Of a stretch of DNA of 64,000 bases, positions 45,757-56,138 are shown piece by piece. Source of the stretch: Burkholderiales bacterium (GTDB lineage Bacteria; Pseudomonadota; Gammaproteobacteria; Burkholderiales; SG8-41); assembly GCA_964203275.1 (NCBI GenBank), contig CAXNMF010000010.1:16159-80158 (forward strand), in the 5' to 3' direction. Positions within the stretch are counted from its first letter, which is position 1, and every line of letters begins with the position of its first letter. The notes below the pieces were generated by a model that had not been told where the DNA came from, ran no database searches, and was given only the letters and a program-made list of their open reading frames with translations. Both the position numbers and the translations under genes were made by a program.

Positions 45757-46918
<1,162 letters not shown>

Positions 46919-47524
46919 TCAGACGGCGGTATCCTTGAAGGACGGGCGCTGAGCCAGCTTGTCGGCCAGCCGGGCCAGATTCGGATGATTGCGCCGCCAC
47001 GGCAGTTCGGACAAGCGCAGTTCAAGCCAGCCGAGGCAGCAACCGACGGCGATGTCGGCAAGGGTGAAAAAATCCCCGGCACACCACGGCTTTGCGGCAA
47101 GATCATCCGCCATCGCCTGCAACGCGCGATCGACCTTGCCCTGCTGGCGGGTCACCCACTCGGTTGATTGCTGTTCTGCGGGCTTACGTTTTTCGTTATA
47201 CAACGCAATGGCTGCATCCGTACAACCGTCGGCCAGCGCTTCCCAGCGCCGTACCTGAATGCGCGGCCTTTTCTCCTCAGGGATCAGGCGATTGCCAGGG
47301 CTGGCGTTGTCGAGATACTCGACAATCACGCGTGAATCGAAAATCGTATTCTCATCGTCAAGCACCATCACCGGGATTTTGCCCAGAGGGTTATATCGCG
47401 TAACAACACTGTCCGGCGTGTTCGGCACATCAGTGATGAACTCACACTCCATGCGTTTTTCGGCAAGCGCGACACGCACCTTGCGGGTATAGGGACTGGT
47501 GACGGTCCCGATCAGCTTCATCAT
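46919..47524 (-). CDS. Glutathione S-transferase
   Basis: MMKLIGTVTSPYTRKVRVALAEK...NPLGKIPVMVLDDENTIFDSRVIVEYL (GST N-domain, cis-Pro IP, Ser of the ES motif) plus a helical C-domain. Confidence 0.85.
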   Translation of the reverse strand: MMKLIGTVTSPYTRKVRVALAEKRMECEFITDVPNTPDSVVTRYNPLGKIPVMVLDDENTIFDSRVIVEYLDNASPGNRLIPEEKRPRIQVRRWEALADGCTDAAIALYNEKRKPAEQQSTEWVTRQQGKVDRALQAMADDLAAKPWCAGDFFTLADIAVGCCLGWLELRLSELPWRRNHPNLARLADKLAQRPSFKDTAV

Positions 47525-47650
47525 ATGGATTGTTCGCAGCGCAAAAATGCAGGAAAAAAGCGCGCGGATTATAGCATCGACATCCTTGACGCCCAACGCC
47601 GCTGAACGTTAGTCTGGACTCCCTTTCAACCGCCTGCAAAGAGGCCACAC

Positions 47651-48421
47651 ATGGGCGCCAACGAACAGTTCATCCTGTTTACCCAACCGGGATGAAGCAG
47701 CTGTCTCCGGGCGAAAGAGTTTCTTTCGCGCAAAAAAATCGATTTCATCGCCATTGATGTCCTGAACGACCCGGATGGCCGCGAACGCCTGCTGAAGTTC
47801 GGCGTGCGCAATGTCCCTGTCGTTGCCAAGGGCGATCAGTTTGTATTCGGACAAAACCTTGAAGATGTCGCCGAATTTGTCGGGCTTCAAGGCACCGGCC
47901 ACAAGCCCTTGCCACCTGAAGAACTGATCAAGCGCTGGATCATGATACTGCGCGCCGCTCAGCGTTTGATTCGTCAGTTGCCGGATGCCAAGCTGCTGGA
48001 GCGCGTCATTCCCAACCGCGATCGCTCCATCCGGCTGATGTGCCACCACATCTTCCGCATCGGCGAGGCTTACCTGGAGTCCGTCGAAGGCGGTGTTGAA
48101 TACGCAGTACAACTCGCCAACATTCCTCCAAAAGACGGCACCTTCATGACCGGCGCTGAAATTGCGCAGTATGGCGACACGGTCATCGAGCGGCTGGAAA
48201 ACTGGTGGAACAAGCTCGAAGACAAATCCTGCCAGCAGAAGATCAAGACCTTCTTCGGCATGCAGCCCATCCACATGCTCTACGAGCGTTCAACCTGGCA
48301 CAGCGCGCAACACGCACGTCAACTTGCCGCAGTGCTGGAGGGCATCGGCATCACGCCGGACCAGCCATTGACGCCCGAACAACTGGCGGGTTTGCCACTC
48401 CCTGAAAGGTTGTGGGAATAG
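47651..48421 (+). CDS. Glutaredoxin-like (U-S-S-C) / DinB-like fusion protein; in-frame TGA at 47693..47695 read as Sec (codon 15)
   Basis: The frame of track ORF 47804..48421 stays open upstream to ATG 47651 except for one TGA: MGANEQFILFTQPG-U-SSCLRAKEFLSRKKIDFIAIDVLNDPDGRERLLKFGVRNVPVVAKGDQFVFGQNLEDV. This is a Grx/Trx-fold with the TGA at the first redox Cys position. Hairpin 15 nt downstream. sel genes are in the window. Confidence 0.75.
47711..47729 (+). promoter_or_regulatory. Putative bacterial SECIS hairpin for the Grx-like/DinB gene
   Basis: GCGAAAGA-GUU-UCUUUCGC: perfect 8-bp stem, GUU loop. Loop G is 24 nt after the UGA. Confidence 0.55.
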
Positions 48422-48441: not shown

Positions 48442-48482
48442 AAAACAAAATGCCGGCATCACCGATGCCGGCATTTTGTTTT
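48442..48482. terminator. Bidirectional rho-independent terminator (19-bp perfect stem)
   Basis: AAAACAAAATGCCGGCATC-ACC-GATGCCGGCATTTTGTTTT, between the convergent Grx/DinB and tctC-like genes. Confidence 0.85.
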
Positions 48483-49616: not shown

Positions 49617-51023
49617 ATGGTGAATCCAGAAGCAGCCGCGCGTCGCGCGTTGCCCTCGGTTGATCGCCTGCTCGGCAGCGAGACAGTCGCGGTCATTATT
49701 GCCGCTCACGGACGCAGCCGCGTAACCACCTTCCTGCGCCGCGCGCTCGAAACCGAGCGCGCACGTCTTGCCGAACCCGATGCCGGCGCTTTCGACGAAA
49801 CCCGTTTTCTGCAGAACTGCGCGGTCGCGCTGGAACGTTCCGCCGCACCGTCACTGAAACCGGTATTCAATCTGACCGGTACCGTGCTGCACACCAATCT
49901 CGGCCGCGCCGTGATGCCGAAGAGTGCTGCAACCGCGGTGATGGCCGCGATGACCCGTCCGGTCAACCTCGAATTCGATCTGGCCACCGGCGCCCGCGGC
50001 GAACGCGACAGCCATGTCGAGCGCTGGCTCGCGGAACTGACCGGTGGCGAAAAAGCCGTCGCCGTCAATAACAACGCCGCCGCCGTCTATCTCGCACTGA
50101 ACACGCTGGCGCTGAAACATGAAGTACTTGTTTCGCGCGGTGAACTGATCGAAATCGGCGGCGCGTTCCGCATTCCCGACATCATGTCGCGCGCCGGCGT
50201 GAAACTGGTCGAGGTCGGCACCACCAACCGCACGCACCTCAAAGACTTTGCCGACGCGATCACCCCGCGCACCGCGGCGATCATGAAAGTCCACACCAGC
50301 AATTACGTGGTGCAGGGTTTCACCGCGACGGTGCCTGAAAGCGAATTGGCGAAACTTGCGCATGAACACAACATTCCGTTCATCGTCGACCTCGGCAGCG
50401 GCACGCTGATCAATCTTGAGGATTACGGCCTGCCGCATGAGCGAACGCCGCGCGAGACCATCGCCGATGGCGCCGATGTCGTCACCTTCAGCGGCGACAA
50501 ACTGCTCGGTGGGCCGCAGGCCGGCCTGCTGGTCGGGCGCAAGGACCTGATGGCGCGCATCGCGAAGAATCCGATGAAACGCGCGTTGCGCCTCGACAAG
50601 CTGACGTTGACCGCACTTGATGCCGTGCTGCGCCTGTATCTGCATCCGGAACGCCTGCACGAAGAACTGCCGGCACTGCGCCTGCTGACACGCAGCGCCG
50701 GCGACATCGCCGCACAGGCGGCCCGTGTACTGCCCACGCTTACAGCCGCACTGGGCGAAGACTGGAAAGTTGAAATAGCTGCCTGCAAAAGCCAGATCGG
50801 CAGCGGTGCACTGCCGGTCGATTCACTGCCCAGCAGCGGGCTGGCCATCGCGCCCGCTGGCAAAAAAGGCAATCTCAACAAACTCGCCGCAGCGCTCCGC
50901 GCACTGCCGGCCCCGGTGATCGGCCACATCAAGGACGGCGCATTGATGCTCGACCTGCGCTGTCTGGATCATGAAGACGAATTCGTCGAGCAACTGCCGC
51001 AACTGAAGATCAGCCACCAATGA
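49617..51023 (+). CDS. selA: L-seryl-tRNA(Sec) selenium transferase
   Basis: LPSVDRLL N-terminus, [34 protein letters not shown] (PLP Lys). 468 aa. Stop overlaps the selB start (ATGA). Confidence 0.93.
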
Positions 51024-53041
51024 TCGTCGCCACCGCAGGCCACATCGACCACGGCAAGACGTTATTGGTCAAAACACTGACCGGTACCGACACCGACCGC
51101 TTGCCCGAGGAAAAAGCCCGCGGCATTTCCATCGACCTCGGATTCGCCTACCTGCCGCTGGCCGAAGGCGGCCTGATCGGCTTTGTCGACGTACCCGGCC
51201 ACGAACGCTTCATCCGCAACATGCTCGCTGGCGTCTCCGGCATTGATTTCGCGCTGCTGATTGTTGCCGCTGACGATGGTGTGATGCCGCAGACCATTGA
51301 ACACCTGCAGATCCTTGATCTGCTGCGTATCGGCCGCGGTGCTGCCGTGATCACCAAAGCCGACCGCGTTGATGCCGCGCGCATTGAAGAAGTACGTGAC
51401 CAGGTCAAAGCCCTGCTGGCACCGACGCTGCTCGCCGATGCGCCGATACTGCCGGTGTCCGCGATCAGCGGCATCGGTATGACCGAACTGAAATCGCTGT
51501 TGCTGCGCGAGGCCACAGCCAAAGGCCAGCGCAGTGCTGCCGGTCAGCATCTGCGTTACGCCATTGACCGCGCCTTCAGCATTGCTGGCAGCGGCACTGT
51601 CGTCACCGGTACGGTGTTCAACGGCACCGTGCGCACCGGCGACAAGCTGGTCATTTCACCCGCTGGGCGCGAAGTACGCGTGCGCAGCATCCAGATCCAC
51701 GGCAAGGCGGCCGTCGAAGCACGCGCCGGCGAACGCTGTGCGCTGAACCTGACCGGCGCAGACGTTGAATCCGTACGTCGCGGCGACTGGGTGATGGCCG
51801 AATCGATTCACCGCCCGACCCGGCGCATCGACGTACGCCTGAACGTGCTGCCCGGTGAAAGCAAACCGCTGAAACACTGGACGCCGGTGCATCTGCACCT
51901 CGCCACCGCCGATGTCACTGCGCGGGTCTCGTTGAAACGCGGCGAAGCCTTGAACCCGGGCCAGGGCGGCATCGGCCAGCTGGTGCTCGACGAACCGGTC
52001 TCGGCGCTTCATGGCGATCGTTTCATCCTGCGCGACCAGTCATCAACACGCACGCTCGGTGGTGGCGTCATCATTGATCCAATTCCACCAGCGTCCCGGC
52101 GCAGCAAGGCGCGCGATGCCACGCTCACCGCTCTCGAATCGGCAGATCACATCACCGCGCTCTCCGCACTGGCCGCCGACGGCAAACGCCCGGTTGACCT
52201 TGCGCATTTCGAAGCGATCTTCAATCTGCTCCCCGACGTCGCCGCTGCCGCGATTGCCCAATCAGGCCTTACGCCGCTGGGCAAAGACCGCCGTATCGCC
52301 ATAACCCAGCCGCGACTGACCGCGCTGCATCAGGCCGTCATCAAACAGGTCAACGCGTTTCATGTGGCCCAGCCCCAGGCGCCGGGTATGGAAATCGAAG
52401 TGCTGCATCAGACACTTGCACCGGAACTCGACGCGGACGCATTTGGTCATGTACTGCGCCTGCTCGCCGAACAGCGGCAGATCGAAGTGCACAGCTCGCT
52501 GGTGCGCAAGCCCGGCCATGACACCACGGCCAACAGCGCCGACGTCAAACTATGGGAGACCGTACAACCCGCGCTGCTGTCGGCAGGATTCAATCCGCCG
52601 CCGCTGAAGGAACTCGCGCCGCTGCTGAAACTGAAAGACGCCATCCTCAAGGATTTCCTCTACCGCCAGATGAAGGCGGGTAATTTGTACAAGGTCGGCG
52701 CCGAACGTTTTTATCTGAAACCGACGATGGCCGTGCTCGCCGCCACGGCACAGGCGGTGGCCGCAAAACAACCCAACGGCCAGTTCACCGCCGCGCAATA
52801 CCGCGACGCGGTCGGCATCGGCCGCACGCTGGCCATTGAGATCCTCGAAACACTGGACGGCATCACCGTTACGCAACGAATCGGCGACGCCCGCAAGATG
52901 CGCAAGGATTTTGCGCCCATCCTCGGCGCCGCCGAACCTGCGCCGCCACCGCCGCCGGGCGCGGTCGCCAAACCGCAGGTGCAGAAACCCTCTGCCGGCA
53001 AGCCGCAGCAACGCCCTCCTTTCCGCAACAAACGTTACTGA
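51020..53041 (+). CDS. selB: Selenocysteine-specific translation elongation factor
   Basis: G-domain [34 protein letters not shown]. Long winged-helix C-terminal extension. 673 aa. Confidence 0.93.
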
Positions 53042-53062: not shown

Positions 53063-53971
53063 ATGACCACATCCGCATTTGACGTCATCATCATCGGCGA
53101 AGGCATCGCCGGACTCACCGCTGCCGGCGCGCTCGCCAAAAAGGGCCTGAGTGCCGCCACTTTCGAACAGCAAATCTTCGGCGGCCTCGTGCTCAACGTG
53201 AATGAACTTGATCCCGCGCCTCCCGGCGGCGAAGCCGGCGGTGCCGCTTTTGCCGCCGAGATGACCGGCGCCAACACCGAAGCTGGCGTCACCAGCATCC
53301 AGGAGCCGGTCACTGCGCTGGCCGCCGCCGATGGCGGCTATGTCGTCACCACCGAGAGCGGCAGCTACCGTGCGCGTCAGGTCATAATCGCCAGCGGCGC
53401 CAAACTGAAATCATTGAACGTGCCCGGCGAAACTGAATTCGAAGGGCGCGGCGTCTCGAAATGCGCCGACTGCGACGGCCCGATGTTCCAGAACGAAACC
53501 GTGGCCGTGATCGGCGGTGGCGACTCCGCACTGCAGGAAGCCAATGTGCTGACGCACTACTGCGGCAAGGTGCTGCTGATCCATCGCGGCACGGCGTTCC
53601 GTGCGCAGCAGCGCTTCATCGACCAGGTCAATGCCAACGACAAGATCGAAAAACGTTTCGGCACGACGGTCGAAACAATCCTCGGCGGACAGATGGTCGA
53701 GAAGATCAAAGTTAAAACTGCTGCGGGCAGCGAAGAGATCACCGTCGCCGGCGTTTTCGCCTATATCGGCCTTGAACCCAACACTGCCTTTGTGCCGGAT
53801 GCCGTCAAACGTGATGACCAGGGTCGCCTCGTCACCAGCGATGCGCTGGAAACCGCGCTGCCCGGCGTCTGGGCTGTCGGCGCCGTACGCAGCGGCTGCG
53901 GCGGCAGTCTCGATGACGCCATTGCTGACGCAAACCGTGCCGCCGACGCCGTCGCGGCGCGTCTGCAGTAA
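53063..53971 (+). CDS. Thioredoxin-reductase-like FAD/NAD(P)H disulfide oxidoreductase
   Basis: DVIIIGEGIAGLTAA (FAD), redox CADCDG (TrxB has CATCDG), VIGGGDSALQEA (NADPH), GVWAVGAV. Confidence 0.8.
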   Translation: MTTSAFDVIIIGEGIAGLTAAGALAKKGLSAATFEQQIFGGLVLNVNELDPAPPGGEAGGAAFAAEMTGANTEAGVTSIQEPVTALAAADGGYVVTTESGSYRARQVIIASGAKLKSLNVPGETEFEGRGVSKCADCDGPMFQNETVAVIGGGDSALQEANVLTHYCGKVLLIHRGTAFRAQQRFIDQVNANDKIEKRFGTTVETILGGQMVEKIKVKTAAGSEEITVAGVFAYIGLEPNTAFVPDAVKRDDQGRLVTSDALETALPGVWAVGAVRSGCGGSLDDAIADANRAADAVAARLQ

Positions 53972-53980
53972 GACTGCTGT

Positions 53981-54529
53981 ATGGCTCTGACCGCCACCAT
54001 CTTCAAGGTGGATCTGACGATCTCCGACATGGACCGCGGCTACTACGCGACCCATGCGCTGGTACTGGCGCGCCATCCTTCCGAAACCGATGAACGGATG
54101 ATGGTGCGGCTGCTCGCGTTCGCGCTCAATGCCGATGAGGCACTGGAGTTCGGCAAGGGCCTGAGCAATGAAGAGGAGCCGGCGCTGTGGCGCAAGGATC
54201 TGACCGGCATCATCGAACAATGGGTCGAAGTCGGCCTACCCGATGAAAAATCCGTACGCAAGGCCTGCGGCCGCGCGACGCAGGTGCTGCTTTATACCTA
54301 CGGCCGCGGTGCCGCGAAGTGGTGGCAGGACAACAGCGATGCGATGGCGCGGCCCGACAACCTCACGGTGATTGATCTGCCAGCTGAATCGACACAGGCA
54401 CTGGCAAAACTTGCCGAACGCACAATGCAACTGCAATGCACGATCCAGGACGGCACAACCTGGATCACCAACGGCGACGAAACCGTGGAAATTGCGCCGG
54501 TCGTGCTCAGCGCAGCGCGACGGCATTAA
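53981..54529 (+). CDS. yaeQ: YaeQ-family protein
   Basis: MALTATIFKVDLTISDMDRGYYATHALVLARHPSETDERMMVRLLAFAL is the conserved YaeQ N-terminus. 182 aa. Confidence 0.88.
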   Translation: MALTATIFKVDLTISDMDRGYYATHALVLARHPSETDERMMVRLLAFALNADEALEFGKGLSNEEEPALWRKDLTGIIEQWVEVGLPDEKSVRKACGRATQVLLYTYGRGAAKWWQDNSDAMARPDNLTVIDLPAESTQALAKLAERTMQLQCTIQDGTTWITNGDETVEIAPVVLSAARRH

Positions 54530-54603: not shown

Positions 54604-54698
54604 GGAAGGGAATCGCTCCCGGTGGGGCGGCCGGACTTCAAACCCGGTAGGGGCCGCGAGCGGTCCTGTGTGGGTTCGACTCCCACTCTCTTCCGCCA
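54604..54698 (+). tRNA. selC: tRNA-Sec (anticodon UCA)
   Basis: 95 nt including CCA. 8-bp acceptor stem GGAAGGGA/UCUCUUCC. 6-bp D-stem CGCUCC/GGGGCG with a 4-nt loop. Anticodon loop CUUCAAA. Long variable arm GGGGCCGC..GCGGUCCU. T-arm GUGGG-UUCGACU-CCCAC. The 8/5 architecture is diagnostic of bacterial tRNA-Sec. Confidence 0.93.
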
Positions 54699-54752
54699 CC
54701 ACATCATTACGGTCCGCAACCACGCGGGCTGTTGCCGACGAGGAGCAATGCG

Positions 54753-56138
54753 ATGAGCTTCGCCATAGATTTATCCAATAAAATCAATGAATTACAGTAC
54801 AACACCCTGCCGGCCGATGCCGTGCACTGGGCCAAGGTCGGCATCCTCGACACCGTCGGCGTAACGATAGCCGGCGCCGCAGAAGATGCGACGCGCATCC
54901 TGCTCGGCGTCTCCGGTTCCAGCAGCGGCCCGTCGCTGGTATTCGGCCACGCACGGCGCATCGGCGCACTCGATGCCGCACTGGTCAACGGCACGGCGTC
55001 ACATGCACTCGACTTCGACGACTGCAACAACACATTGGGCGGTCATCCGTCGGTGCCCATACTGCCCGCATTGTTTGCGCTCGCTGATGAAACCGGCGCC
55101 ACCGGCAAAGACTTCATCGCCGCCTACGTCGCCGGCTTCGAAGCCGAATGCAAACTTTCGATGGTGGTGAATTTCTACCAGTACACCAGAGGCTGGCACC
55201 CGACGACCACCATCGGCGTGTTCGGCAGCGCCGCGGCCTGCGCGCATCTGCTGAAACTGTCCGTTGAAAAAACCGCCACTGCGCTGTCGATCGCCGCATC
55301 GCTCGCCGCCGGCGTCAAATCGAATTTCGGTACCATGACCAAACCGCTGCACGTCGGTCACTGCGCACGCAGTGGCCTGTTCGCCGCACTGCTCGCCCGT
55401 GACGGCTTCACAGCCGGCGCAACCGCCTTCGAACACAAGCAGGGTTACTTCGAAGTTTTCAACGGCGCCGGCAATTACGACGCGAGCAAGGCGATCCCGG
55501 CTTGGGCCAATCCGCTCGACATCACCCGCCCCGGCATCGCGATCAAGTCCTATCCCTGCTGCGGCAGCACCCACCCGGCCATCGACTGCATGCTTGAACT
55601 GGTGCAGAAAAACAACCTGAAACCCGAGCAGGTCGCGCGCATCGATTCCTGGACACATACGCGCCGCCTCGAACACACCAACCGTCCCGATCCGCAGTCA
55701 TACCTCGACGCCAAGTTCAGCGTGCAGTACACGCTGGCCCGTGCGCTGAAGGACCGCACCGTCAAGCTGGAACACTTCGAAGGCGACAACTGGAAAGACC
55801 CCGCGACACGCGCGATCCTGCCGAAAATCCATGTCGCGACTTACACCACCGAGCAGTTCCCTGCCGACAACCATTTCGGCGCCGAAGTAAAAGTCACGCT
55901 GACCGACGGCCGCGTCTTCAGCACCAAGACCGACCAGGCGCTGGGCCGCAGCGTCGATAAGCCGCTGCCCGCCGACATGCTCAAGGCCAAGTTCGACAAC
56001 TGCGCCGCACGCGCACTGTCAACTGACAATGTCGCGCGGCTTTATGCGGCGATCCAGGATTTCGAGAACGCAAAGGATGTGCGGGAGATTGCGGCGCTGG
56101 CTGCTGGTAAGGGCGGGCCGCAGCGGGTTGCAGCCTGA
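54753..56138 (+). CDS. MmgE/PrpD-family protein (paralogue 1)
   Basis: LDTVGVTIAGA, ALVNGTASHALDFDD and TKPLHVGHCARSG match the 2-methylcitrate dehydratase superfamily. AGGAG RBS before the ATG at 54753. Confidence 0.85.
   Translation: MSFAIDLSNKINELQYNTLPADAVHWAKVGILDTVGVTIAGAAEDATRILLGVSGSSSGPSLVFGHARRIGALDAALVNGTASHALDFDDCNNTLGGHPSVPILPALFALADETGATGKDFIAAYVAGFEAECKLSMVVNFYQYTRGWHPTTTIGVFGSAAACAHLLKLSVEKTATALSIAASLAAGVKSNFGTMTKPLHVGHCARSGLFAALLARDGFTAGATAFEHKQGYFEVFNGAGNYDASKAIPAWANPLDITRPGIAIKSYPCCGSTHPAIDCMLELVQKNNLKPEQVARIDSWTHTRRLEHTNRPDPQSYLDAKFSVQYTLARALKDRTVKLEHFEGDNWKDPATRAILPKIHVATYTTEQFPADNHFGAEVKVTLTDGRVFSTKTDQALGRSVDKPLPADMLKAKFDNCAARALSTDNVARLYAAIQDFENAKDVREIAALAAGKGGPQRVAA

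What the first reader, a model, noticed from the sequence alone, without database searches (positions are those of the whole stretch)
47651..48421. Unannotated UGA-containing ORF: glutaredoxin-like domain with U-S-S-C fused to a DinB-like domain (predicted selenoprotein)
The ORF track begins this gene at GTG 47804 (205 aa, DinB-like helical domain with HHIFRIGEAYL and WHSAQHARQL). The same frame is open upstream to ATG 47651 apart from one TGA at 47693..47695. It reads MGANEQFILFTQPG-[TGA]-SSCLRAKEFLSRKKIDFIAIDVLNDPDGRERLLKFGVRNVPVVAKGDQFVFGQNLEDV. This is a standard glutaredoxin/thioredoxin-fold N-terminus: beta1, redox motif at the start of helix 1, cis-Pro VP, and a GDxxxxG turn. The TGA sits exactly where the first Cys of CxxC belongs. 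Fifteen nt after the TGA is a perfect 8-bp hairpin, GCGAAAGA-GUU-UCUUUCGC. Its loop G is 24 nt from the UGA, within the spacing usual for bacterial SECIS elements. selA, selB and tRNA-Sec lie 1.2 to 7 kb downstream. Sec-containing Grx-like proteins are known, but I do not recall a Sec-Grx/DinB fusion as a described selenoprotein family. DinB-superfamily proteins are often thiol-dependent transferases, so a tethered Sec redox module is mechanistically interesting.
Basis: partly seen in the sequence, partly recalled or inferred. Interest (0 to 1): 0.8.

Follow-up and report, generated by a model that had tools for sequence, protein, structure and literature searches.

The report
Unannotated selenoprotein: Sec-glutaredoxin fused to DinB
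The "stop" codon at 47693 is almost certainly read as selenocysteine, so the gene makes a 256-residue enzyme (a selenium-containing glutaredoxin-like head fused to a DinB-type metal-binding domain). This protein family is widespread, is cut short in public annotation, and is missing from current catalogues of bacterial selenoproteins.

Summary

- **TGA conservation.** The in-frame TGA is kept in all 81 species-level orthologues. It is also kept in diverged paralogues and in Alpha-, Gamma- and Deltaproteobacteria, Chloroflexota, Binatia and other phyla.
- **Sec/Cys pair.** Full-length homologues carry Cys (QPG-C-S/T-S-C) in the same column.
- **SECIS hairpin.** Of 144 conserved degenerate codon columns, only six use a single codon. 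Those six are exactly the hairpin codons (47711-47728). The hairpin meets every criterion of the published bacterial SECIS model.
- **Shared cassette.** The same TGA-N16-hairpin unit also heads known-type stand-alone Sec-glutaredoxins (YruB family) in many phyla.
- **Machinery.** selA, selB and tRNA-Sec lie downstream, in conserved synteny.
- **What is new.** The fusion to DinB_2 is new. It is absent from a May 2026 list of 119 prokaryotic selenoprotein families and from NCBIfam. GenBank calls the truncated ORFs "DinB family protein".
- **Biochemical function.** This is inferred only. The likely role is a metal-dependent thiol-transferase or reductase-like enzyme that uses a tethered selenol.

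Verdict: a real feature and a new variant of a known kind. It is moderately to highly interesting.

The parts
47640..47644 (+). Shine-Dalgarno-like AGAGG, 6 nt upstream of the ATG
   Evidence: Read directly from the sequence.
47651..48421 (+). Full coding sequence of the Sec-Grx/DinB selenoprotein: 256 codons including UGA-Sec at codon 15, then stop TAG 48419-48421
   Evidence: Translation. Pfam Glutaredoxin + DinB_2. Orthologues in 80 species-level genomes have the same start, TGA and stop.
47693..47695 (+). In-frame TGA read as selenocysteine (U15 of the U-S-S-C motif)
   Evidence: TGA in 81/81 orthologues and in 104 unique Sec-form sequences. Cys in the aligned column of full-length homologues. 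It aligns with the native Sec13 of the C. oremlandii selenoprotein cGrx1.
47711..47729 (+). SECIS hairpin GCGAAAGA-GUU-UCUUUCGC. The invariant 17-nt core is 47712-47728. The apical loop is G47719 U47720 U47721.
   Evidence: MFE -8.6 kcal/mol, z -3.3. Six codons with zero synonymous variation in 80 sequences, the only such codons among 144 conserved degenerate columns. The core is invariant in 98/99 unique sequences; the one change, A-U to G.U, keeps the pair. It meets the bSECIS model. The same cassette occurs in stand-alone Sec-Grx genes of many phyla.
47672..47845 (+). Glutaredoxin-like thioredoxin-fold domain (residues 8-65)
   Evidence: Pfam PF00462, E 5e-13. Best PDB sequence hits are cGrx1 7c10 and NrdH-type redoxins. 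A Foldseek search with the model of homologue P0124 gives TM 0.86-0.90 to BC3987 and cGrx1.
47954..48325 (+). DinB_2 four-helix-bundle domain (residues 102-225) with invariant H133, H217 and H221 (WHSAQH)
   Evidence: Pfam PF12867, 28.6 bits against a cut-off of 24.8. Invariant columns. The AF2 model of the 47%-identical Cys form has pLDDT 92.7. Foldseek hits YfiT 1rxq and DR0053 6iz2 at probability 1.0.
48450..48482 (.). Intrinsic-terminator-like hairpin ATGCCGGCATC-ACC-GATGCCGGCAT followed by TTTGTTTT, with an A-rich run (AAAACAAA) on its 5' side. It looks like a bidirectional terminator shared with the convergent TctC gene.
   Evidence: Read from the sequence. The scan flags the minus-strand version.
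46919..47524 (-). Divergently transcribed YibF-type glutathione S-transferase
   Evidence: NCBIfam NF007682, 186.5 bits against a cut-off of 181. 37% identical over its full length to E. coli YibF, which sits directly upstream of selA-selB. Present next to the selenoprotein gene in 53/80 loci.
49617..51023 (+). selA (selenocysteine synthase)
   Evidence: TIGR00474, 575.6 bits. Found downstream of the selenoprotein gene in 56/80 loci within the fetched flank.
51020..53041 (+). selB (Sec-specific elongation factor, the expected reader of the hairpin)
   Evidence: TIGR00475, 418.3 bits. Synteny.
53063..53971 (+). Thioredoxin-reductase-like flavoprotein (CADC motif), a candidate reductant of the Grx domain
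   Evidence: TIGR01292, 228.7 bits, below the equivalog cut-off of 343. Follows selB in at least 33/80 loci. One Cys-form locus has a TrxR-type gene directly after Grx-DinB.
54604..54698 (+). tRNA-Sec (selC), anticodon TCA
   Evidence: ARAGORN. Rfam RF01852, 75.9 bits.

Best explanation
Window 47651-48421 encodes one 256-residue selenoprotein.

Shown or strongly supported:
- UGA 47693-47695 is recoded as selenocysteine.
- The signal is the 17-19-nt hairpin at 47711-47729, which has G-U in its apical loop 23-24 nt downstream of the UGA. It is the kind of element that SelB reads.
- SelA, SelB and tRNA-Sec are encoded 1.2-6.9 kb downstream, in a syntenic block.
- The product has an N-terminal YruB/NrdH-like glutaredoxin-fold domain. 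Its redox motif is U15-S-S-C18, with Sec in the attacking position.
- This domain is fused to a C-terminal DinB/YfiT (S-transferase-like) four-helix bundle with an invariant His triad (H133, H217, H221).

Inferred (about 0.35 confidence):
- The DinB domain binds a divalent metal and an electrophilic or oxidised substrate.
- The tethered selenolate takes the place of the diffusible low-molecular-weight thiol that other DinB enzymes use.
- Its attack yields a Se-S (U15-C18) selenenylsulfide.
- That bond is re-reduced by the TrxR-like flavoprotein encoded after selB, or by glutathione with the neighbouring YibF-type GST.
- Gene contexts and one natural fusion link the family to MmgE/PrpD enzymes and carboxylate uptake proteins. 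This suggests a role in organic-acid catabolism or detoxification.
For: - **TGA conserved.** 81/81 orthologues. 104 unique Sec-form sequences, including diverged paralogues and other phyla.
- **Translated upstream region.** The upstream codons are conserved as protein while their synonymous sites vary.
- **Sec/Cys pair.** Shown. It includes cultured Enterovirga, Ferrovibrio and Falsiroseomonas.
- **Truncated gene calls.** All 120 best database hits are gene calls of 192-238 aa that start after the TGA.
- **Hairpin under selection.** Only 6 of 144 conserved degenerate codon columns use a single codon, and these are the six hairpin codons. The core is invariant in 98/99 unique sequences, and the one change keeps pairing.
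- **bSECIS criteria met.** Loop, stem, G[U], spacing and MFE all fit.
- **Cys forms are relaxed.** They vary these codons and lose the hairpin or the loop G.
- **Same cassette in stand-alone Sec-Grx genes**.
- **Closest solved relative.** The best PDB sequence relative, cGrx1, is a native selenoprotein with Sec in the aligned position.
- **Machinery.** selA, selB and tRNA-Sec are present, in synteny.
- **DinB assignment.** Pfam, AF2 model and Foldseek. The His triad matches the YfiT pattern H67/H160/H164.
- **Context.** PrpD and TctC neighbours and a 721-aa PrpD-Grx-DinB fusion. A TrxR-type neighbour.
Against: - There is no experimental evidence of selenium incorporation.
- The hairpin shows almost no covariation, because it is invariant. 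Support therefore comes from purifying selection, not compensatory change.
- The peptide motif K-E-F-L is itself predisposed to form a hairpin.
- In the wider 71-nt or 43-nt context the fold energy is not unusual (z -0.5 to -0.6).
- Some diverged Sec groups (L147, L162) do not place a G in the loop of their MFE fold.
- No Rfam family matches.
- selD was not looked for.
The geometry between the redox motif and the His triad is unknown.
- The TctC and PrpD neighbourhood is weak evidence, because these genes are very abundant in Burkholderiales.
- The TrxR-like link rests on synteny alone.
Confidence: 0.9

Rival explanations
1. The TGA is a genuine stop. The real product is a DinB-only protein that starts at an internal codon (GTG 47804 or similar). 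The upstream stretch is a 14-codon leader or a decayed remnant of a former Grx domain.
For: Gene callers and GenBank annotate it this way, as 'DinB family protein' of 205-238 aa. TGA is the commonest stop in the window.
Against: - The annotated starts differ from genome to genome and fall inside a conserved Grx fold.
- The residues before and after the TGA are under protein-level purifying selection.
- A decayed remnant would not keep TGA in 104 unique sequences across phyla while the flanking synonymous sites vary.
- Cys-form homologues are full length.
- The Sec machinery is adjacent.
Confidence: 0.03
2. The UGA is recoded, but the conserved hairpin is only a by-product of coding for A-K-E-F-L-S. 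The true SECIS lies elsewhere, or recoding is SECIS-independent.
For: The codons for K-E-F-L are intrinsically self-complementary, and Cys forms share the peptide motif. The wider-context fold is not significant.
Against: - Protein-level selection cannot explain zero synonymous variation in exactly these six codons while 138 other conserved codon columns all vary.
- Non-preferred codons (TTT, CTT, AAA) are fixed here.
- Cys forms with the same peptide use varied codons, including GAA, which removes the loop G.
- The exact TGA-N16-hairpin unit recurs in unrelated phyla, with UxxC in 116 of 119 loci.
Confidence: 0.05
3. The protein serves selenium trafficking itself, not general metabolism. With the YibF-type GST and the TrxR-like flavoprotein it would reduce selenite or selenodiglutathione and hand selenide to SelD. 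That would explain its place inside the sel gene block.
For: Tight synteny yibF-like GST / Sec-Grx-DinB / selA / selB / TrxR-like / selC. The yibF-selA-selB linkage also exists in E. coli.
Against: - Cys forms and paralogous Sec forms sit in unrelated catabolic contexts without sel genes.
- Selenoprotein genes commonly travel with selABC for reasons of co-inheritance, as reported for fdhA.
- No biochemical data exist.
Confidence: 0.12
4. The TGA in this window is a sequencing or assembly error for TGC/TGT.
For: The window does carry at least one probable single-base error: the frameshift in mnmA at about 46513.
Against: The same TGA is present in all 80 independent species-level assemblies and in many more.
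Confidence: 0.01

Closest known systems
Sec-containing glutaredoxins (Grx selenoprotein family, PF00462, UxxC; e.g. Clostridium oremlandii cGrx1; YruB-family TIGR02196)
   Same: - Thioredoxin fold.
- Sec is the first residue of U-x-x-C at the start of helix 1.
- cGrx1 is the best PDB sequence hit, and its native Sec aligns with U15.
- The stand-alone YruB-type Sec-Grx genes carry the identical TGA-N16-CGAAAGAGTTTCTTTCG cassette.
   Different: - Those proteins are stand-alone and about 78-85 aa long. This one continues into a 170-residue DinB domain.
- The motif is U-S-S-C rather than U-P-x-C.
- The Grx domain scores below the YruB, NrdH and Uxx-star cut-offs.
- The classical glutathione-binding motifs (TVP, GG-x-DD) are replaced by NVP and FGQN, as read from the sequence.
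DinB/YfiT (S-transferase-like) superfamily: bacillithiol and mycothiol S-transferases (BstA/YfiT), DR0053, mycothiol-dependent maleylpyruvate isomerase, and the DinB domains of EgtB and OvsA
   Same: - Pfam DinB_2 hit.
- Four-helix bundle, with Foldseek probability 1.0 to 1rxq, 6iz2, 2p1a, 3gor, 2nsf and 8u41.
- Three invariant His in the H...HxxxH pattern of YfiT.
- Multi-domain DinB enzymes are known.
   Different: - Known members use a diffusible thiol (bacillithiol, mycothiol, glutathione or gamma-Glu-Cys).
- None is reported with a fused redox domain or with selenocysteine.
- Sequence identity to solved members is only 12-20%.
Cys-active-site GST-like proteins (omega-class GST, CLIC, E. 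coli Grx2)
   Same: The architecture is analogous: an N-terminal thioredoxin-fold domain carrying the catalytic Cys, followed by an all-helical C-terminal domain. Weak whole-length Foldseek hits to CLIC1 and bacterial GSTs reflect this (ranks 12-50).
   Different: They are not homologous in the helical domain (TM about 0.3, rmsd above 11 A). GSTs have no His-triad metal site and no Sec in these classes.
Other fusion selenoproteins in the 2026 catalogue (HUGP/GUXX-star fusion, Trx7/PDZ, arsenite methyltransferase fusions)
   Same: A Trx- or Grx-fold Sec module is joined to a second domain. They were identified by the same bioinformatic logic.
   Different: None contains DinB / PF12867. The HUGP/GUXX-star model scores 21 bits against a cut-off of 325.

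Membership tests
Bacterial selenoprotein (SelB/SECIS-dependent UGA recoding) | In-frame UGA conserved among orthologues, with coding conservation on both sides | tested here: met
   TGA in 81/81. 104 unique Sec-form sequences. The flanks FILFTQPG / SSCLRAKEFLS are conserved with synonymous variation.
Bacterial selenoprotein (SelB/SECIS-dependent UGA recoding) | Cys-containing homologues with Cys aligned to the UGA | tested here: met
   QPG-C-[ST]-S-C in 83 full-length proteins. TGC/TGT in 13 unique DNA loci.
Bacterial selenoprotein (SelB/SECIS-dependent UGA recoding) | bSECIS hairpin: 3-9 nt loop, 4-16 bp stem, G in the first two loop positions, 16-37 nt from the UGA, MFE <= -7.5 kcal/mol | tested here: met
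   Criteria taken from PMC13188914. Here: loop GUU, stem 7-8 bp, 23 nt spacing, MFE -8.6. Synonymous-site invariance supports it.
Bacterial selenoprotein (SelB/SECIS-dependent UGA recoding) | Sec machinery in the genome (selA, selB, selC, selD) | tested here: met
   selA, selB and tRNA-Sec are in the window. selD was not searched for.
Bacterial selenoprotein (SelB/SECIS-dependent UGA recoding) | Selenium demonstrably incorporated into the protein | not testable with these tools
   Needs 75Se labelling or mass spectrometry.
Glutaredoxin / Sec-Grx family (PF00462) | Pfam Glutaredoxin above the gathering score, with U/CxxC at the start of helix 1 and a cis-Pro loop | tested here: met
   49.4 bits against 22.9. 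U-S-S-C and N-V-P are seen in the sequence. Homologue model TM 0.86-0.90 to BC3987 and cGrx1.
Glutaredoxin / Sec-Grx family (PF00462) | Glutathione-binding motifs (T-V-P, G-G-x-D-D) | tested here: inconclusive
   The sequence has N-V-P and F-G-Q-N instead. The best structural relatives include BC3987 and NrdH redoxins; from background knowledge, not checked here, these are reduced by thioredoxin reductase. The reductant is unknown.
Named NCBIfam Sec-Grx families (Uxx-star NF041212, UXX-star 1-3, YruB TIGR02196, NrdH TIGR02194, HUGP/GUXX-star) | Score at or above the curated cut-off | tested here: not met
   Best scores are 41-44 bits against cut-offs of 66-325.
DinB/YfiT (S-transferase-like) superfamily | DinB-type four-helix bundle recognised by a profile or by structure | tested here: met
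   PF12867, 28.6 bits against 24.8. A Foldseek search with the AF2 model of the 47%-identical homologue (pLDDT 92.7) gives probability 1.0 to YfiT and DR0053, TM up to 0.82.
DinB/YfiT (S-transferase-like) superfamily | Three conserved metal-binding histidines (YfiT H67, H160, H164) | tested here: met
   H133, H217 and H221 are invariant in 36 sequences, with the H...HxxxH pattern. The defining pattern comes from PMC5815605. This was matched by pattern, not by residue-level superposition.
DinB/YfiT (S-transferase-like) superfamily | Metal-dependent thiol-transferase activity | not testable with these tools
   Requires enzymology.

The most novel reading that the evidence does not exclude
Sec-Grx/DinB is a new enzyme type: a DinB metalloenzyme whose thiol co-substrate has been replaced by a covalently tethered selenol. 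It is also the selenoprotein that keeps the Sec-decoding trait alive in a large clade of freshwater, groundwater and soil Burkholderiales. It occupies the place next to selA-selB-selC that fdhA holds in the Betaproteobacteria studied so far. It works with MmgE/PrpD-family enzymes on an as yet unidentified carboxylate substrate.
Probability: 0.3. Interest if true: 0.75.

Novelty: new variant of a known kind. Interest (0 to 1): 0.64.

Why it matters
1. **Annotation.** Thousands of database entries for this family are truncated 'DinB family' or 'hypothetical' proteins that lack their active site. A family model with a Sec exception would correct them.
2. **Catalogue.** It adds a widespread, multi-phylum architecture to the catalogue of prokaryotic selenoproteins.
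3. **Sec trait in Betaproteobacteria.** A 2006 survey (the only source checked) found FdhA to be the only selenoprotein in the Sec-decoding Betaproteobacteria then sequenced. Here a different selenoprotein sits next to the sel genes.
4. **DinB biochemistry.** A DinB domain with a built-in selenol offers a handle on the poorly understood DinB/S-transferase-like superfamily, whose natural substrates are mostly unknown.
5. **SECIS biology.** A 17-nt SECIS that is sequence-identical from Bacillota to Burkholderiales is unusual, given that bacterial SECIS elements are described as highly divergent. It could serve as a portable Sec-insertion tag.

Tried and rejected
- **Rfam.** Both the gathering scan of the window and the permissive scan of 47640-47800 gave no SECIS family. 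This is expected, because bacterial SECIS elements are not well covered.
- **Folding wider contexts** (71 nt, 43 nt) gave non-significant z-scores. Only the isolated hairpin stands out, so I relied on comparative evidence.
I used the truncated orthologue P0017 and the Cys homologue P0124 instead.
- **Profile search of the DinB domain against PDB sequences** returned only designed helical repeats and a marginal DR0053 hit (E 0.22). The DinB assignment therefore rests on Pfam and Foldseek.
- **Genome scan with P0139** found nothing.
- **Promoter scan** of the intergenic region found no sigma-70 consensus.
- **A single consensus SECIS structure across all Sec groups** was rejected. The pairing register shifts by one between groups (GUU loop versus AGUU loop), so a formal covariation count on one structure would mislead.
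- **TctC adjacency** was considered as functional evidence and discounted, because Bug/TctC genes are very numerous in Burkholderiales.
- **The TrxR gene next to Cys form P0127** is only 29% identical to the window's TrxR-like gene. It is a weak parallel, not an orthologue.
- **One paper** (PMC3062254) was not held.
Full report
**1.

- The mechanical ORF list starts the gene at GTG 47804 (205 aa).
- The same frame is open from ATG 47651 to TAG 48419-48421, with a single TGA at 47693-47695.
- An AGAGG Shine-Dalgarno-like motif lies 6 nt before the ATG. A strong hairpin followed by a T-run comes after the stop.
- The 8-bp hairpin GCGAAAGA-GTT-TCTTTCGC is at 47711-47729, 15 nt after the TGA.
- With U replaced by C, the product hits Pfam Glutaredoxin (residues 8-65, E 5e-13). 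That domain straddles the TGA. It also hits DinB_2 (residues 102-225, above the cut-off).
- TGA is the commonest ordinary stop in the window (12 of 25 ORFs). A variant code is not the answer.

**2. Comparative evidence for a conserved, translated UGA**

- A protein search returned 3226 relatives. All 120 best hits are gene calls of 192-238 aa that begin at different codons after the TGA, several of them inside the Grx fold (MRAKEFLS...). This is the usual signature of a selenoprotein truncated by gene callers.
- In 80 species-level genomes, almost all labelled Burkholderiales or Betaproteobacteria MAGs and 67-95% identical, the aligned codon is TGA in every case. An in-frame ATG lies about 14 codons upstream.
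- The codons before the TGA (F-I-L-F-T-Q-P-G) are conserved as amino acids while their synonymous sites vary freely. The stretch is therefore translated.
- An exhaustive profile-free search with the orthologue P0017 found 826 clusters at 50% identity. Many are full-length proteins of 250-276 aa that carry QPG-C-[ST]-S-C in the same place.
- At the DNA level, the cultured Enterovirga and Falsiroseomonas and a Ferrovibrio MAG carry TGC. Other Alpha-, Beta- and Gammaproteobacteria carry TGA.
- This is the classical Sec/Cys pair.
- Some MAGs hold two or three Sec paralogues, for example L050, L081 and L084.

**3. The hairpin is under nucleotide-level selection and fits the SECIS model**

- I examined 144 codon columns with a conserved, degenerate amino acid. 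Exactly six use one codon in all 80 sequences: GCG AAA GAG TTT CTT TCG, 47711-47728. These six form the hairpin.
- The fixed codons include non-preferred ones such as TTT and CTT.
- The 17-nt core is identical in 98 of 99 unique sequences. The one exception changes an A-U pair to G.U.
- The published bacterial SECIS model asks for four things: a 3-9-nt loop and 4-16-bp stem; a G (usually G followed by G or U) in the first two loop positions; 16-37 nt between the UGA and the loop; and MFE <= -7.5 kcal/mol.
- Here the loop is GUU, the stem is 7-8 bp, the spacing is 23 nt and the MFE is -8.6 kcal/mol.
- Cys forms share the K-E-F-L peptide but vary these codons. Four of 11 use GAA, which removes the loop G, and they mostly lose the hairpin.
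- Diverged Sec groups keep a hairpin with G27-U28 in the loop through different sequences, for example CCAAGG-AGUU-CCUUGG.
- Caveats: there is no true covariation within the main group; wider-context folding is not significant; two diverged Sec groups do not show the loop G in their MFE fold.

**4. The Sec head is a known cassette; the DinB tail is new**

- I ran an exact scan of 185,579 species genomes for TGA-N16-CGAAAGAGTTTCTTTCG.
- 116 of these have U-x-x-C. They break down as follows:
  - 61 are Grx-DinB fusions. These occur in Burkholderiales, Alphaproteobacteria, Binatia, Deltaproteobacteria, Chloroflexota/Dehalococcoidia, Eremiobacterota and Acidobacteria. Four examples were checked with Pfam: three hit DinB_2 and/or DinB above the cut-off, and one (L209) only below it.
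  - 35 are stand-alone Sec-glutaredoxins of about 78 aa. One of the two tested passes the YruB-family cut-off; the other falls just short.
  - 13 are cut by a contig end.
  - 7 are of other lengths. Among them are Grx-PDZ, Grx-zinc-ribbon and ArsC-like forms.
- The best PDB sequence relative of the Grx domain is cGrx1 of Clostridium oremlandii. It is natively a selenoprotein whose Sec aligns with U15.
- The recoding unit therefore belongs to the established Sec-Grx family. This is independent support that the hairpin works as a SECIS.

**5. The C-terminal domain**

- An AlphaFold2 model of the 47%-identical Cys form P0124 is confident (pLDDT 92.7, pTM 0.89).
- Foldseek matches its helical domain to YfiT/BstA (1rxq), DR0053 (6iz2), other DinB structures, mycothiol-dependent maleylpyruvate isomerase (2nsf) and the DinB domain of OvsA, all at probability 1.0.
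- Foldseek matches its N-domain to BC3987, cGrx1 and NrdH redoxins (TM up to 0.9).
- H133, H217 and H221 (W-H-S-A-Q-H) are invariant. They match the three-histidine pattern that defines metal-dependent DinB thiol transferases (YfiT H67, H160, H164).
The distance between the redox motif and the His triad is unknown.

**6. Context**

- The conserved block runs: mnmA; YibF-type GST (divergent); Sec-Grx/DinB; sometimes TctC; selA; selB; TrxR-like flavoprotein; YaeQ; tRNA-Sec; MmgE/PrpD-like. Counts among 80 loci, limited by flank length, are mnmA 71, GST 53, selA 56 and selB 52.
- The GST is 37% identical to E. coli YibF, which likewise sits directly upstream of selA-selB.
- Cys forms and paralogous Sec forms lie in catabolic clusters:
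  - Grx-DinB / TctC / MmgE-PrpD / acyl-CoA synthetase
  - Grx-DinB / TrxR-type reductase
  - clusters with an aconitase-like dehydratase or CoA-transferases
- One 721-aa protein fuses MmgE/PrpD to Cys-Grx-DinB.
- These data suggest a redox or thiol-transfer step in organic-acid metabolism. They do not define the substrate.

**7. Mechanism**

Shown or strongly supported: UGA recoding as Sec through the hairpin, SelB and tRNA-Sec; and the two-domain architecture with U-S-S-C and a His triad.

Inferred, at about 0.35 confidence:
- The DinB metal site holds the substrate.
- The tethered selenolate replaces the diffusible thiol of other DinB enzymes.
- The resulting Se-S bond with C18 is re-reduced by the TrxR-like protein or by glutathione.

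An alternative is that the protein serves selenium delivery within the sel block (about 0.12). The non-sel contexts of its relatives argue against this.

**8. Novelty**

- NCBIfam release 20 has no full-length model. The best hit scores 41 bits against a cut-off of 66.
- GenBank names the truncated ORFs 'DinB family protein', 'glutaredoxin domain-containing protein' or 'NrdH-redoxin'.
- A May 2026 review lists 119 prokaryotic selenoprotein families and subfamilies. None has DinB or PF12867.
- Full-text searches combining selenoprotein or selenocysteine with DinB or YfiT terms found nothing relevant.
- The GOS study reports 'Grx-like' Sec reads and several fusions, but not this one. With short reads, some of its Grx-like hits could in fact be this family.
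- A 2006 survey found FdhA to be the only selenoprotein of the Sec-decoding Betaproteobacteria then sequenced, with fdhA next to selABC.
- I therefore rate this a new variant of a known kind: a new architecture and family built on the known Sec-Grx cassette.

**9. Verdict**

Confidence that this is a genuine selenoprotein gene is about 0.9. The biochemical function remains open. Interest is 0.64.

Noticed in passing
window 45766-46918 (frameshift near 46513): mnmA (tRNA 2-thiouridylase) is frame-shifted. The ORF stops at TGA 46516-46518 after ...GLGIGGTR, and the rest (DGDGDAWYVAQKD...) continues in another frame. Relatives read GTRDGDGD without interruption; the window has one extra T. This is either an assembly or sequencing error or a pseudogene.
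   Followed up: partly
window 46919-47524 (-); L285 6348-6956: The divergent neighbour is a YibF-type GST (NF007682 above its cut-off, 37% identical to E. coli YibF). In E. coli K-12, yibF sits directly upstream of selA-selB. The GST-sel linkage therefore spans Beta- and Gammaproteobacteria and may point to a role in selenium handling.
   Followed up: partly
window 53063-53971 (+): A divergent thioredoxin-reductase paralogue (CADC motif; TIGR01292, 229 bits against a cut-off of 343) directly follows selB. It is conserved there in at least 33/80 loci. YaeQ (53981-54529) lies between it and tRNA-Sec.
   Followed up: partly
P0226 (721 aa); window 54732-56138; L138, L142, L143: One natural protein fuses an MmgE/PrpD domain to Cys-Grx-DinB. 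Several Cys-form loci have the gene order Grx-DinB / TctC / MmgE-PrpD. The window has an MmgE/PrpD-like gene right after tRNA-Sec. This may be a functional partnership.
   Followed up: partly
L166-L284 (e.g. L167, L176, L179, L192, L234): The exact unit TGA-N16-CGAAAGAGTTTCTTTCG recurs across many phyla. It heads stand-alone Sec-Grx (YruB type), Grx-PDZ, Grx-zinc-ribbon and ArsC/Spx-like proteins, including one in a cultured Bacillus sp. B1-b2 (L239). A sequence-identical SECIS across such distances is unusual.
   Followed up: partly
L050, L081, L084 (one MAG); L033 + L083; L038 + L089: Single MAGs carry two or three diverged Sec-containing Grx-DinB paralogues (about 50% identical), each with the SECIS core. 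The extra copies lie among TctC and PrpD genes, not next to selAB.
   Followed up: partly
window 48442-48482: An 11-bp GC-rich hairpin is flanked by an A-run and a T-run. It lies between the convergent selenoprotein and TctC genes and looks like a bidirectional intrinsic terminator.
   Followed up: no
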